From NCBI RefSeq assembly GCF_947499215.1, contig NZ_CANMNI010000001.1, forward strand, positions 1,319,523-1,383,522: a DNA stretch of 64,000 nucleotides. The letters run 5' to 3'. The notes under the pieces were generated by a model. That model made no database searches and was not told the DNA's origin. It saw only the letters and a list, made by a program, of their open reading frames with translations. Below are positions 20,930 through 34,091 of the stretch, piece after piece. Source of the DNA: an uncultured Pontibacter sp. (GTDB lineage: Bacteria; Bacteroidota; Bacteroidia; Cytophagales; Hymenobacteraceae). The position numbers and the translations under genes are program-made. How positions within the stretch are numbered: the stretch's first letter is position 1; each line of letters begins with the position of its first letter.

Positions 20930-21011
20930 TGCGCACGGGGAGACTCGAACTCCCACACCCGAAGGCACAGGCTTCTGAGACCTGCACGTCTACCAATTTC
21001 GCCACGTGCGC
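20930..21011 (-). tRNA. tRNA-Leu(CAG): tRNA-Leu (anticodon CAG), long variable arm, CCA not encoded
   Basis: The reverse complement GCGCACGTGGCGAAATTGGTAGACGTGCAGGTCTCAGAAGCCTGTGCCTTCGGGTGTGGGAGTTCGAGTCTCCCCGTGCGCA folds as a cloverleaf: 7-bp acceptor stem, anticodon loop CTCAGAA, TPsiC arm GGGAGTTCGAGTCTCCC. Confidence 0.95.
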
Positions 21012-22544: not shown

Positions 22545-23036
22545 ATGAACCAGACGGAACTGACAGAATTAACGATGATGCTGAAAGACAAAGGCCTGAC
22601 CGTGGCCTTTGCGGAGAGTTGCACGGCCGGCATGCTGGCCTCGGAAATGGCGAAAGCCAAGGGAAGCAGTGATGTCTTAAAGGGCAGTCTCGTCGTGTAT
22701 CAGCCGGAAGTCAAGAAAAAGCTGTTGGGTGTGACACAGGCTACACTCGATCTCTATACCGCCGAATCGCAGCAGGTGACCAACGAGATGGTGATGGGCC
22801 TGAAAAAAGCACTGGACGCTGACATTAGCATTGCTACTACCGGGCTAGCCGGGGAAGGAGGCTCCGAGACCCCGGAAAAGCCTGTCGGTACCACATTCGT
22901 TTCCTTCCTCTATGACGGCAAAGCGGAGGAGTTCCGGGAGGTTTTCGAAGGCAACAGCCTCAGCATCCGGAAACAGCTCACCGACTATGTGTTTGAGAAG
23001 CTGAAGGGAATCATGGAAGAGCATTATGACCGGTAA
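22545..23036 (+). CDS. CinA-family nicotinamide-nucleotide amidohydrolase (PncC-like domain)
   Basis: 163-aa ORF with TVAFAESCTAGMLAS and ATTGLAGEGG segments typical of the CinA C-terminal domain. Confidence 0.85.
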   Translation: MNQTELTELTMMLKDKGLTVAFAESCTAGMLASEMAKAKGSSDVLKGSLVVYQPEVKKKLLGVTQATLDLYTAESQQVTNEMVMGLKKALDADISIATTGLAGEGGSETPEKPVGTTFVSFLYDGKAEEFREVFEGNSLSIRKQLTDYVFEKLKGIMEEHYDR

Positions 23037-23040
23037 TTAT

Positions 23041-23458
23041 TGTCATTTCGAACGCTAGTGAGAAATCTGGAGTATCCACACAATTATTGATCACAACAAA
23101 TCTTCATGATAGGCCACAACTACTTTGTCTATATCACAACGAACCCGAAGAAAACAACTTTGTATGTGGGAATGACAAATGAGCTTCCACGAAGAATTGA
23201 TGAGCATACGCTAAATGCTGGCGACCCTAGTACTTTTGCAGGCCGGTACTATTGCCATAATCTTGTCTATTATGAGCGTTTCACATACGTACAACATGCG
23301 ATTGAACGGGAGAAACAAACAAAAAAATGGAGCAGGAAGAAAAAAGAAGAGTTAATTAGCAGTTTTAATCCTGATTTGAAGAGATCGCAGATTGGGATGA
23401 ATAGTACACTATTTGGACCTTCATTCCTTCAGATTTCTCACTAGCGTTCGAAATGACA
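23041..23458 (+). mobile_element. candidate compact mobile cassette: GIY-YIG ORF bounded by perfect 29-bp terminal inverted repeats, flanked by a TTAT direct repeat
   Basis: tgtcatttcgaacgctagtgagaaatctg (23041-23069) is the exact reverse complement of 23430-23458. TTAT occurs at 23037-23040 and at 23459-23462. The cassette sits 4 nt after the cinA stop and 14 nt before the next CDS. Confidence 0.55.
23106..23444 (+). CDS. GIY-YIG nuclease family protein (small, stand-alone)
   Basis: 112-aa ORF with YFVYITTN...LYVGMTNELPRRIDEH...YYE...AIEREKQTKKWSRKKK, the canonical small GIY-YIG (URI) domain. Its last 5 codons and stop lie inside the right inverted repeat. Confidence 0.85.
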   Translation: MIGHNYFVYITTNPKKTTLYVGMTNELPRRIDEHTLNAGDPSTFAGRYYCHNLVYYERFTYVQHAIEREKQTKKWSRKKKEELISSFNPDLKRSQIGMNSTLFGPSFLQISH

Positions 23459-23472
23459 TTATTGTTTAGCCC

Positions 23473-24123
23473 TTGCCTAACCCCACCACCCCCAACTTCG
23501 ACAGCATAGCCCCCATCTACGACAGCCTCTCCCGCATGGTGTTTGGTGATGCCCTGCGGCGAGCGCAGATGGAGCACCTAGGTGCTATACCTGAGCAAGC
23601 GCATGTGCTGCTAATCGGGGGCGGCTCGGGTTGGCTCTTAGAGCAACTGCTCCTACAAAAGCCGCAGGTACAAGTCACCTACCTCGAGTCATCGACCAAA
23701 ATGCTTGAACTGGCGCAAAAGCGCTGTAAACAACTTGCTATACCTACCGCCGCTGTCTCTTTCCGATTGGGAGATGAAAACAGCCTGAAACCCGACGAGA
23801 AGTTCGATGTCATCATCACCCCTTTTCTGCTCGACCTCTTTCCAGATGACAGGCTGCAGCACCTCATGGATCGCCTTTTCACAGCCCTCCGCCCCGGCGG
23901 ACTTTGGTTATTCAGCGATTTTTGGCCTGTGCATGAGCCTACTCCGTTTTGGCAGCGGCTGTTGTTGCGTAGTATGTACACCTTCTTCGGTGTGGTCAGC
24001 GGGGTGAACGCCAGTCAACTACCGGATTTTGGATTGCACTTTCAGCGTCTTCGGCTACAAGAGCAGGCAAGTACCCAATTTTATGGCAGCTTGATTCAGG
24101 CTAAGGTATATCGCAAGGTATAG
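23473..24123 (+). CDS. class I SAM-dependent methyltransferase
   Basis: 216-aa ORF with the LLIGGGSG SAM-binding motif. There is no in-frame ATG upstream of the conserved FDSIAPIYD segment, so the track's TTG start at 23473 is used. Confidence 0.7.
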   Translation: MPNPTTPNFDSIAPIYDSLSRMVFGDALRRAQMEHLGAIPEQAHVLLIGGGSGWLLEQLLLQKPQVQVTYLESSTKMLELAQKRCKQLAIPTAAVSFRLGDENSLKPDEKFDVIITPFLLDLFPDDRLQHLMDRLFTALRPGGLWLFSDFWPVHEPTPFWQRLLLRSMYTFFGVVSGVNASQLPDFGLHFQRLRLQEQASTQFYGSLIQAKVYRKV

Positions 24124-34008: not shown

Positions 34009-34091
34009 TGTCATTTCGACCTTTGGGAGAAATCTGAAGAAGAGCTGGTGTATTGAAAGAATCCAGATCTCTCATTCCATTCGAGATGACA
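34009..34091. repeat. 83-bp MITE-like inverted-repeat element with ends related to the GIY-YIG cassette TIRs
   Basis: The left arm is tgtcatttcgacctttgggagaaatctg. The reverse complement of the right arm is tgtcatctcgaatggaatgagagatctg. Both match the tgtcatttcgaa...gagaaatctg ends at 23041/23458. There is no ORF inside. Confidence 0.7.

What the first reader, a model, noticed from the sequence alone, without database searches (positions are those of the whole stretch)
23037..23462. GIY-YIG nuclease gene packaged as a 418-bp transposon-like cassette (perfect 29-bp TIRs plus TTAT flanking duplication)
Seen directly: tgtcatttcgaacgctagtgagaaatctg (23041-23069) and its exact reverse complement (23430-23458) bracket one 112-aa GIY-YIG ORF. 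The ORF's stop codon lies inside the right repeat. The 4 nt outside both ends are TTAT (23037-23040 and 23459-23462), which is the pattern expected of a target-site duplication. Each TIR can also fold on its own (ATTTC...GAAAT). The unit is wedged into a 436-bp gap, 4 nt after the cinA stop and 14 nt before a methyltransferase that now has only a TTG start. Small stand-alone GIY-YIG proteins are normally annotated as orphan nucleases. To my knowledge, a TIR- and TSD-bounded unit in which GIY-YIG is the only gene is not a described bacterial transposon class. By analogy with RAYT/REP and IS200/IS605 systems, it could be the autonomous partner of the abundant tgtcatttcga...gagaaatct hairpin repeats of Bacteroidota. 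That link is inference.
Basis: partly seen in the sequence, partly recalled or inferred. Interest (0 to 1): 0.75.

Follow-up and report, generated by a model that had tools for sequence, protein, structure and literature searches.

The report
Ssn-type nuclease gene between hairpin repeats
This is a small GIY-YIG nuclease gene bracketed by its own hairpin repeats, a unit first described in 2025 as the Ssn single-strand-DNA nuclease family. It is real and was inserted in an ancestor of this bacterium. It is not a new transposon class, and the "target-site duplication" does not hold up.

Summary
Perfect 29-nt inverted repeats (23041-23069 / 23430-23458) bracket one GIY-YIG ORF (23106-23444) between cinA and a methyltransferase.

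The unit belongs to a published kind. Chenal et al. 2025 (Nat Commun 16:2388) described the Ssn family: roughly 94-aa single-domain GIY-YIG nucleases whose genes are flanked by HGTC-tagged hairpin repeats. These enzymes cut single-stranded DNA just 5' of the hairpin. The window protein is 40% identical to Neisseria SsnA and keeps its catalytic residues.

The repeats are structured hairpins: TGTC, a 5-bp stem, GA, a mini-stem-loop, GA, the stem complement, then C. The stems covary strongly. Outward-facing tags on both sides of the gene are the family's usual layout.

Comparative data show a real insertion. Thirty-six related Pontibacter species have an 8-56-nt empty spacer. One subclade carries the unit, variously intact, inverted, frameshifted or reduced to gene-less hairpin pairs.

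- TTAT duplication: only 1 of 18 comparable units has a flanking direct repeat, and that one is the window.
- Stop codon inside the repeat: it results from a 13-nt frameshifting deletion.
- TTG start of the methyltransferase: it is also found at empty sites.

The hairpin variant here is not matched by the published search motif. Whether Ssn units are truly mobile remains unproven.

The parts
22545..23036 (+). cinA-family gene (context; left neighbour of the insertion)
   Evidence: Pfam CinA PF02464, E 1.6e-41. It was used to fetch 80 orthologous loci.
23037..23040 (.).
   Evidence: Present. It is part of a 7-nt direct repeat, TTATTGT, with 23459-23465. It is not reproduced in 17 other units.
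23041..23069 (+). Left hairpin repeat (Ssn-related motif, tandem-GA variant): TGTC tag, stem ATTTC, GA, AC-GCTA-GT, GA, stem GAAAT, tail CTG
   Evidence: Exact 29-nt inverted repeat. The predicted fold is (((((..((....))..))))). Covariation of stems across copies. TGTC tag and 3' C are conserved.
23106..23444 (+). ssn-like gene: single-domain GIY-YIG nuclease, 112-aa ORF with an altered C-terminus
   Evidence: Pfam GIY-YIG, E 2.3e-14. 40% identical to N. gonorrhoeae SsnA, E 6e-16. Y9, Y20 and E69 correspond to SsnA Y6, Y17 and E64. 591 homologues of about 100 aa.
23376..23404 (+). Site of a 13-nt deletion (between 23376 and 23377) and the ancestral-frame stop TAG (23402-23404)
   Evidence: Alignment A2 with four orthologous copies. 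The C-terminal tail diverges from all homologues after residue ~91.
23430..23458 (-). Right hairpin repeat, exact reverse complement of the left one (tag pointing outward)
23459..23462 (.). TTAT right flank
   Evidence: See the left flank.
23473..24123 (+). Class I methyltransferase (context; right neighbour), TTG start
   Evidence: Pfam Methyltransf_25 and others. The aligned start is also TTG in most empty-site species.
34009..34036 (+). Gene-less hairpin pair, left member (TGTC-ATTTC-GA-CCTTTGG-GA-GAAAT-CTG)
34064..34091 (-). Gene-less hairpin pair, right member, with compensated stem (ATCTC/GAGAT). Together with the left member it forms a head-to-head dimer of 83 bp.

Best explanation
The cassette is a member of the Ssn family: a roughly 100-aa single-domain GIY-YIG nuclease gene flanked on both sides by its cognate hairpin repeats, with their TGTC tags facing outward.

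By homology to the characterised enzymes, the protein should bind the hairpin only when the DNA is single-stranded and hydrolyse that strand a few nucleotides 5' of the TGTC tag. With outward-facing tags, the + strand would be cut just left of 23041 and the - strand just right of 23458. Both cuts fall at the outer borders of the unit.

The unit entered the cinA-methyltransferase spacer once, in an ancestor of a Pontibacter subclade. It was then inherited vertically and is decaying. Here it carries a 13-nt frameshifting deletion at the 3' end. In relatives it is inverted, frameshifted or reduced to gene-less hairpin pairs. Gene-less hairpins such as 34009-34091 are the dispersed, REP-like partners of the same system.

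Shown here: identity of the family, the structure of the repeat, and insertion followed by decay. Inferred: enzymatic specificity in this organism and any role of the nuclease in spreading the repeats.
For: Protein:
- Pfam GIY-YIG match.
- 40% identity and E 6e-16 to the N. gonorrhoeae SsnA orthologue.
- Equivalents of SsnA Y6, Y17 and E64 are present.
- Homologues are about 98-103 aa single-domain proteins.

Repeat:
- The motif GTC-N5-GA-loop-GA-rc(N5) occurs 43 times in 531 kb of Pontibacter DNA. It occurs 0 times for each of 7 control dinucleotides.
- With no pairing imposed, 124 of 147 anchored matches have fully complementary variable stem triplets, of 11 types. Shuffles give a mean of 17.8 and a maximum of 32.
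- The 5' TGTC and the 3' C are conserved in about 70-77% of structure-only hits. These are the positions that matter for SsnA cleavage and binding.

Association:
- 26 of 80 metagenomic homologue loci have the strict motif within 200 bp. Most of the 19 strict-motif-negative loci inspected by eye have variant GTCA...TGAC hairpins.
- The nearest upstream hairpin is '+' in 18 of 22 loci. The nearest downstream hairpin is '-' in 16 of 19.
- The same layout occurs in S. meliloti, N. aromaticivorans (31-nt perfect arms), N. gonorrhoeae and A. lipoferum.

Literature: Chenal et al. 2025.

Insertion:
- 36 empty spacers versus one occupied clade.
- GIY-YIG nucleotide identity tracks cinA identity.
- A. 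lipoferum carries a unit in sufB|sufC that is absent from relatives with 95-97% identical flanks. Shinella has an independent unit in the same spacer.
Against: - The published degenerate SRM search sequence does not match the window repeat or any Bacteroidota copy tested. The repeat is therefore a variant outside the published definition.
- The CDD cd10448 assignment could not be run.
- The hairpin is thermodynamically unremarkable with standard DNA parameters (z about 0).
- The window ORF has a non-homologous C-terminal tail and may be inactive.
- Copy number of hairpins and ssn genes in this genome is unknown, since only 64 kb were seen.
- No biochemical data exist for any Bacteroidota member.
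Confidence: 0.8

Rival explanations
1. One reading: a classical cut-and-paste TIR transposon whose transposase is the GIY-YIG protein and which duplicates a 4-bp TTAT target on insertion.
For: - Perfect 29-nt terminal inverted repeats and TTAT on both sides.
- The unit is absent from 36 orthologous spacers.
- The closest relative's empty spacer (L006, GTTAATTTTGCAG) loosely resembles the window flanks joined with a single TTAT.
Against: - None of 17 other units bounded by outward-facing hairpins has a flanking direct repeat. Four of them extend the inverted repeat instead.
- Orthologous copies of the same insertion lack TTAT.
- Independent units in Novosphingobium, Shinella and Azospirillum show no duplication.
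- Characterised Ssn enzymes do not touch dsDNA and only hydrolyse one strand.
- GIY-YIG enzymes form no covalent intermediate for strand transfer (established knowledge).
Confidence: 0.07
2. Homing-type selfish element. The nuclease nicks ssDNA at hairpin-bearing sites, including gene-less pairs. Recombinational or template-switch repair from a gene-bearing copy then copies the gene, and new hairpins, into those sites. This would make the gene-bearing unit the autonomous partner of the dispersed hairpins.
For: - Gene-less head-to-head pairs resemble emptied units (L012, L015, L017, L019, L028).
- Both orientations of the gene occur between the same hairpins at one locus.
- The window's two arms are 100% identical although the gene has diverged 23-28% from relatives. 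This suggests conversion between arms.
- Gain or loss occurs in conserved operon spacers.
- The cycle of decay after insertion is typical of homing endonuclease genes.
Against: - GIY-YIG divergence tracks host divergence at this locus. That fits vertical descent rather than repeated re-invasion.
- No recent, strain-level insertion was captured.
- The forward and reverse forms are not simple inversions of each other, and this is unexplained.
- There is no experimental evidence of mobility in the only paper on the family.
Confidence: 0.25
3. Domesticated host function. The nuclease and hairpins act as a system that processes or restricts single-stranded DNA, as SsnA does for transforming DNA in Neisseria. 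The flanking hairpins would be regulatory or historical rather than transposition ends.
For: - Experimental role of SsnA in limiting integration of NTS-bearing DNA.
- Wide vertical retention of ssn genes.
- The authors' own domestication hypothesis.
Against: - At this locus only 2 of 10 species keep an intact gene, so there is no purifying selection here.
- There is no PADLOC defence-family match.
- Whether Pontibacter is naturally competent was not looked into.
- Other paralogues elsewhere in the genome could carry the function, and this was not examined.
Confidence: 0.3
4. Invertible DNA switch. The inverted repeats serve as recombination sites that flip the segment to regulate the nuclease or the downstream methyltransferase.
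For: - The gene lies in opposite orientations in different species between the same repeats.
- All three forward copies (window, L016, L033) are damaged, while the two reverse copies are intact.
Against: - There is no invertase or recombinase nearby.
- Orientation differs between species, not shown within a population.
- The forward and reverse forms differ in their internal non-coding parts, so they are not simple flips.
Confidence: 0.05

Closest known systems
Ssn nuclease family with NTS/SRM hairpin repeats (Chenal et al. 2025, Nat Commun 16:2388; N. meningitidis SsnA, CDD cd10448)
   Same: - Single-domain GIY-YIG protein of about 94-103 aa, 40% identical to Neisseria SsnA, with catalytic Tyr/Tyr/Glu conserved.
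- The gene is flanked on both sides by oriented hairpin repeats with a 5' (C/T)GTC tag and a 3' C.
- The repeats are also dispersed without the gene.
   Different: - The hairpin here has a 5-bp stem, a tandem G·A/A·G mismatch and a 1-2-bp inner stem. It is not matched by the published SRM search pattern.
- The host is a Bacteroidota (Pontibacter), a group not discussed in that paper's main text.
- This copy has a frameshifted C-terminus.
- Activity is untested.
CGTC-tagged REP super-family (Di Nocera, De Gregorio & Rocco 2013, BMC Genomics 14:522)
   Same: - A CGTC tag that is 'changed to TGTC in many repeats'.
- Stems of 8-9 positions beginning A-T, T-A, with loops of about 4-5 nt.
- A short unpaired tail (CCA in L003).
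- Mostly head-to-head dimers, located close to stop codons.
- The host list overlaps the taxa where I found ssn genes flanked by such repeats: Sinorhizobium, Azospirillum, Novosphingobium, Neisseria dRS3.
   Different: [quoted passage not shown]
- The tail here is CTG rather than CCA.
- The stem is interrupted by the tandem GA.
RAYT/REP-REPIN systems (REPtrons) and IS200/IS605
   Same: - A small nuclease gene flanked by inverted copies of the hairpin repeat that it recognises on ssDNA.
- Repeats occur as singletons, head-to-head dimers and clusters (L095 has 13 alternating copies).
- Recognition depends on a conserved unpaired tetranucleotide next to the hairpin.
   Different: - The protein is GIY-YIG, not an HUH/Y1 enzyme, so there is no covalent 5'-phosphotyrosine intermediate and no known strand transfer.
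- The tag is (C/T)GTC, not GTAG.
GIY-YIG homing endonucleases (I-TevI, T4 Seg proteins)
   Same: - The GIY-YIG catalytic domain.
- A free-standing small gene wedged into intergenic or operon spacers.
- A cycle of invasion and decay.
   Different: - There is no separate DNA-binding domain (NUMOD, HTH or zinc finger).
- The target is an ssDNA hairpin rather than a long dsDNA site.
- Only weak profile similarity (TIGR01453 20.8 bits against a cut-off of 56; phrog_5123 E 5e-4).
UPF0213 / bacterial Slx1-like stand-alone GIY-YIG proteins (PDB 1ZG2, 1YWL; E. coli YhbQ type)
   Same: They are the closest solved structures by sequence (E 2.7e-7 and 9e-6) and are also minimal single-domain GIY-YIG proteins.
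   Different: - Lower similarity than to SsnA (33.8 bits by profile against 53.5 bits pairwise).
- No hairpin-repeat association was described for them.

Membership tests
Ssn nuclease family (Chenal et al. 2025) | Single-domain GIY-YIG protein of about 90-105 aa with no accessory domain | tested here: met
   The only significant Pfam domain is GIY-YIG, covering residues 5-80. Homologues are 98-103 aa. The window ORF is 112 aa only because of a frameshifted tail.
Ssn nuclease family (Chenal et al. 2025) | Sequence homology to N. meningitidis/gonorrhoeae SsnA (the paper's criterion is E < 1e-10) | tested here: met
   BLASTP against the N. gonorrhoeae orthologue (L168) gives 40% identity over 81 aa, E 6e-16. 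tblastn hit.
Ssn nuclease family (Chenal et al. 2025) | Catalytic residues equivalent to SsnA Y6, Y17 and E64 | tested here: met
   Y9, Y20 and E69 align with them and are invariant in A1.
Ssn nuclease family (Chenal et al. 2025) | Gene flanked 5' and 3' by oriented hairpin repeats carrying an HGTC tag | tested here: met
   23041-23069 (+) and 23430-23458 (-), with tags outward. The same orientation rule holds in 18/22 upstream and 16/19 downstream cases.
Ssn nuclease family (Chenal et al. 2025) | Flanking repeat matches the published SRM search sequence HGTCWYN(0-2)YYVSBRHN(0-5)WNVSBRGN(0-2)RNCYNB | tested here: not met
   A regex built from the published string finds the Neisseria and Azospirillum repeats. 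It finds 0 matches in the window and 0 in six Bacteroidota loci. The tandem GA breaks the pattern. That pattern was hand-built from 29 genomes.
Ssn nuclease family (Chenal et al. 2025) | Cognate repeat present in many copies in the same genome | tested here: inconclusive
   There are 4 strict copies in the 64-kb window against 0.08 expected. There are 43 in 531 kb of Pontibacter DNA. The whole genome is not available.
Ssn nuclease family (Chenal et al. 2025) | Site-specific cleavage of ssDNA only, a few nt 5' of the hairpin | not testable with these tools
   Needs purified protein and oligonucleotide assays.
Ssn nuclease family (Chenal et al. 2025) | Assignment to CDD cd10448 (GIY-YIG_unchar_3) | not testable with these tools
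   No CDD/rpsblast is available. As indirect support, the protein is closer to SsnA than to the UPF0213 structures.
CGTC-tagged REPs (Di Nocera et al. 2013) | Unpaired CGTC (or TGTC) tag at one end, stem of 8-9 positions starting A-T/T-A, loop of 4-5 nt, short unpaired tail, head-to-head dimers | tested here: met
   TGTC tag, stem ATTTC+GA+AC (9 positions), loop GCTA, tail CTG. CCA tail in L003. Head-to-head dimer at 34009-34091. Criteria taken. The interrupted stem is a deviation.
Insertion sequence / TIR transposon | Target-site duplication of fixed length at independent insertions | tested here: not met
   Only 1 of 18 units, the window itself, has a 4-nt direct repeat. There is none in Novosphingobium, Shinella or Azospirillum.
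Insertion sequence / TIR transposon | Encodes a recognised transposase (DDE, HUH, serine or tyrosine recombinase) | tested here: not met
   The only domain is GIY-YIG. There are no other ORFs with family matches in the unit.
RAYT/REP (REPtron) | HUH-Y1 (IS200-like) nuclease and GTAG-tagged REPs | tested here: not met
   The protein is GIY-YIG and the tag is TGTC. Only the architecture is analogous.
GIY-YIG homing endonucleases | GIY-YIG domain joined to a separate sequence-specific DNA-binding domain | tested here: not met
   There is no second domain. TIGR01453 scores 20.8 bits against a cut-off of 56 and covers residues 7-39 only.

The most novel reading that the evidence does not exclude
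Ssn units are, or recently were, genuinely mobile. On this reading they form a hairpin-directed, ssDNA-dependent selfish element class driven by a minimal GIY-YIG nuclease. They would be the long-missing autonomous partner of the whole (C/T)GTC-tagged REP super-family, which was reported in 2013 to lack a dedicated transposase.

The Pontibacter cinA|methyltransferase locus and the Azospirillum and Shinella sufB|sufC insertions would be natural records of the full cycle: insertion, inversion, gene decay and persistence of gene-less hairpin pairs. The perfect identity of the two arms in this window would then reflect nuclease-triggered conversion between arms.
Probability: 0.3. Interest if true: 0.7.

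Novelty: new member of a known kind. Interest (0 to 1): 0.4.

Why it matters
The window adds a Bacteroidota example to a nuclease family described only in 2025. Its biology outside Neisseria is unknown, and its enzymes are being promoted as tools for cutting single-stranded DNA.

Three points go somewhat beyond the paper:
1. The hairpin here is a distinct structural variant. It has a tandem G·A mismatch inside the stem, and the published search pattern misses it. Published counts of repeat-associated ssn genes (71%) are therefore probably underestimates.
2. Comparative loci give direct evidence that such units are gained in otherwise conserved spacers and then decay to gene-less hairpin pairs. 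The paper only raised this as a hypothesis.
3. The repeats fit the 'CGTC-tagged REP' super-family, for which no enzyme had been found and which the 2025 paper does not cite.

None of this changes the basic classification.

Tried and rejected
- Rfam scans of the region (E up to 10) and of the whole window found only a tRNA. The hairpin is not a curated RNA family.
- Literature searches combining GIY-YIG with MITE, transposase, RAYT, REPIN, 'repetitive extragenic palindromic' or Bacteroidetes found nothing relevant. The key paper surfaced only through the term dRS3.
- Base-level empty-site reconstruction at cinA|methyltransferase failed. The intergenic flanks are too diverged between species. 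L006 gives only a loose resemblance to a single-TTAT site.
- Filled-versus-empty comparison for six other hairpin sites in the Pontibacter loci failed for the same reason.
- The Azospirillum sufB|sufC comparison proved presence or absence at 95-97% flank identity. The spacer itself is rearranged, so exact junctions and any duplication could not be read.
- Simple inversion between the arms was considered as the origin of the forward and reverse forms. It was rejected as a complete explanation because the internal non-coding parts differ.
- PADLOC gave no match for the window protein. For P0002 it gave only weak PDC-S57 hits (E 0.0019 and 0.0065).
- The supplementary tables of the Ssn paper are not held, so I could not check whether Pontibacter is in its lists.
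Full report
**1. Observation.** The sequence is as described.
- TGTCATTTCGAACGCTAGTGAGAAATCTG lies at 23041-23069, and its exact reverse complement at 23430-23458. These are 2 matches with none in 100 shuffles. The inverted repeat extends to 35 nt at 94%.
- Between the arms there is one ORF of note, 23106-23444 (112 aa). It matches Pfam GIY-YIG at E 2.3e-14.
- cinA ends at 23036 and a class I methyltransferase starts with TTG at 23473. The distances of 4 nt, 14 nt and 436 nt are therefore correct.
- TTAT flanks both ends. The direct repeat is in fact 7 nt, TTATTGT, counting the first three bases of the left arm.
- A third and fourth copy of the repeat form a gene-less head-to-head pair at 34009-34091.

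**2. The repeat is a structured hairpin.** Its anatomy is (T/C)GTC, a 5-bp stem, GA, a 1-2-bp inner stem with a 3-4-nt loop, GA, the complementary stem, then C.
- Standard DNA energy parameters find exactly this fold but score it no better than shuffles (z about 0).
- Comparative evidence is strong. The strict motif occurs 43 times in 531 kb of Pontibacter DNA. It occurs 0 times with any of seven other dinucleotides in place of GA.
- I also used an anchored pattern that imposes no pairing on three stem positions. Of 147 matches, 124 are fully complementary, with 11 different complementary triplets. Shuffles give a mean of 17.8 and a maximum of 32.
- When copies are defined by structure alone, the 5' TGTC and the 3' C are each present in about 70-77% of them.

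**3. The gene and the repeat go together, far beyond this genome.**
- The protein has 591 homologues of about 100 aa, mostly from Bacteroidota.
- In Pontibacter aydingkolensis the gene is flanked by inverted hairpin pairs. In a metagenomic genome two copies sit 2.2 kb apart, each with hairpins.
- Of 80 metagenomic homologue loci, 26 carry the strict motif within 200 bp. I inspected the flanks of 19 of the 54 loci without it, and most show variant GTCA...TGAC-tagged hairpins.
- The nearest upstream hairpin is on the gene strand in 18 of 22 loci. The nearest downstream one is on the opposite strand in 16 of 19. The window's layout, with tags outward, is therefore the norm.
- A tblastn search of plasmids and chromids found homologues in Sinorhizobium, Novosphingobium, Azospirillum, Sphingobium, Rhizobium and Neisseria.
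- In four loci inspected, the gene is bracketed by CGTC-tagged hairpins. These include a perfect 31-nt pair 359 nt apart in N. aromaticivorans and dRS3-type repeats in N. gonorrhoeae.

**4. This is a published system.**
- Chenal et al. 2025 (PMC11893778) describe the Ssn family. Its members are roughly 94-aa single-domain GIY-YIG nucleases (CDD cd10448).
- The Neisseria member binds the NTS hairpin, CGTCATTCCCGCGMAVGCGGGAATCYRG, only as ssDNA. It cuts a few nucleotides upstream. It does not act on dsDNA, RNA or the complementary strand.
- They report that 71% of homologue regions carry at least one 'Ssn-related motif' and 42% carry one on both sides. They note that the NTS-ssnA-NTS architecture resembles an IS. 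They draw the RAYT/REP/BIME analogy and propose domestication.
- The window protein is 40% identical to the N. gonorrhoeae orthologue (E 6e-16). Y9, Y20 and E69 align with the SsnA residues whose mutation abolishes cleavage.
- The nucleotides shown to matter for SsnA are the three bases 5' of the palindrome and the C just 3' of it. These are the ones conserved in the Pontibacter hairpins.
- It is the only paper in the library that mentions SsnA with GIY-YIG.

**5. Differences from the published description.**
- The authors' degenerate SRM pattern matches the Neisseria and Azospirillum repeats. It gives no match in the window or in six Bacteroidota loci, because the tandem GA breaks it.
- The main text does not mention Bacteroidota. 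It does not cite Di Nocera et al. 2013.
- That earlier paper's 'CGTC-tagged REP' super-family fits these repeats. Its features are a tag often changed to TGTC, stems beginning A-T/T-A, a short tail and head-to-head dimers. It was said to 'lack a dedicated transposase'.
- The closest solved structures are UPF0213 proteins 1ZG2 and 1YWL, at lower similarity than SsnA.

**6. Insertion and decay at this locus.** I fetched cinA loci from 80 species.
- In 36 Pontibacter species, cinA and the methyltransferase are 8-56 nt apart. Four more have 109-189-nt spacers without hairpins.
- Hairpin-bounded inserts occur only in the window and nine species that cluster together in a neighbour-joining tree of five flanking proteins. 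Empty L006 falls unresolved among them and empty L007 at the base of the clade.
- Within that group the gene is intact and in reverse orientation in two species (L008, L009). It is forward but frameshifted in two (L016, L033). It is forward with a 13-nt 3' deletion in the window.
- In five species (L012, L014, L015, L019, L028) the gene is reduced to internal-deletion remnants that keep hairpins at the borders, with some right arms degenerate.
- Botryobacter ruber has a perfect gene-less pair at another position in the same spacer.
- GIY-YIG nucleotide identity follows cinA identity. One old insertion with vertical descent is therefore the simplest history.
- Independent support for gain or loss comes from Azospirillum. 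A. lipoferum 4B carries a pair-ssn-pair unit in the sufB|sufC spacer. Three relatives with 95-97% identical flanks lack it. Shinella has a different unit in the same spacer.

**7. What does not hold.**
- The TTAT duplication is not a property of these units. Among 18 units with outward-facing hairpins on both sides, only the window has a 4-nt direct repeat. Four extend the inverted repeat instead.
- Orthologous copies of the same insertion lack the duplication.
- The stop codon inside the right arm follows from the 13-nt deletion. The relatives' stop aligns with TAG at 23402-23404.
- The methyltransferase TTG start is shared by most empty-site species.

**8. Mechanism.**
- Shown elsewhere and inferred here: the protein recognises the hairpin on single-stranded DNA and hydrolyses 5' of the tag. 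With tags outward, the two cuts fall at the outer borders of the unit, one on each strand.
- Whether this drives copying of the unit or of gene-less hairpins is unknown. The possibilities are homing-like repair, excision followed by host ligation, or nothing at all.
- GIY-YIG chemistry offers no strand transfer (established knowledge), so a classical transposase role is unlikely.

**9. Unexplained points.**
- The two arms in the window are identical although the gene has diverged 23-28% from relatives. In relatives the two arms carry different loops.
- The forward and reverse forms are not simple inversions of each other.

**10. Verdict.** This is a real, well-observed feature. It is correctly linked to the hairpin repeats, but it belongs to a family described in 2025. 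The transposon-with-TSD reading is not supported. The incremental value lies in the Bacteroidota hairpin variant, the comparative evidence for insertion and decay, and the link to the orphan CGTC REPs.

Noticed in passing
window 34009-34091: An 83-bp gene-less head-to-head pair of the same hairpin family. The two members have compensated stems (ATTTC/GAAAT versus ATCTC/GAGAT) and 27 nt lie between them. The pair sits in the spacer between a DUF-like periplasmic protein gene (ends 33835) and a methyltransferase-like gene (starts 34176).
   Followed up: partly
window 23106-23444 versus P0001: The public gene call for this ORF is 90 aa, starting at Met23. That cuts off the conserved N-terminal 'YFVYI' strand with the first catalytic tyrosine. 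The 112-aa reading matches homologues at the N-terminus.
   Followed up: partly
L003 299-2797 (metagenome genome, 7.3-Mb contig): Two identical-length GIY-YIG genes lie 2.2 kb apart, each followed by a TGTC-ACCTC...GAGGT-CCA hairpin. An IS110-family transposase gene sits between them. From memory, IS110/IS1111 elements are known to target REP-like hairpins.
   Followed up: no
L095 50-1130: An array of 13 alternating '+' and '-' hairpins of two stem types lies upstream of a GIY-YIG gene, reminiscent of BIME clusters.
   Followed up: no
L169 1377-1889 (A. lipoferum 4B) and L172 630-1070 (Shinella sp.): Independent ssn units with different hairpin subtypes are wedged into the sufB|sufC operon spacer in two alphaproteobacterial orders. 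Sphingomonas parapaucimobilis has a DUF559 endonuclease-like gene in the same spacer. The spacer may be a hot spot for small selfish nuclease genes.
   Followed up: partly
L166 1149-1961 (S. meliloti, gltA|lpxB): The end of a second GIY-YIG ORF and several CGTC-ATCCTCGGG hairpins precede the annotated ssn gene. This suggests a tandem duplication of the unit.
   Followed up: no
L008, L009, L016, L033 and window, cinA|methyltransferase spacer: All three copies oriented with the flanking genes are damaged. The two copies on the opposite strand are intact. One possibility is selection against read-through expression of the nuclease, but the numbers are too small to conclude.
   Followed up: partly
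Literature (PMC11893778 versus PMC3733652): The 2025 Ssn paper does not cite the 2013 survey of CGTC-tagged REPs, although the repeats and host taxa overlap. The published SRM pattern misses the tandem-GA hairpins of Bacteroidota.
   Followed up: yes
window 20930-21011 (-): A tRNA gene (Rfam RF00005, 55 bits), the only Rfam match in the window. It is unrelated to the finding.
   Followed up: no
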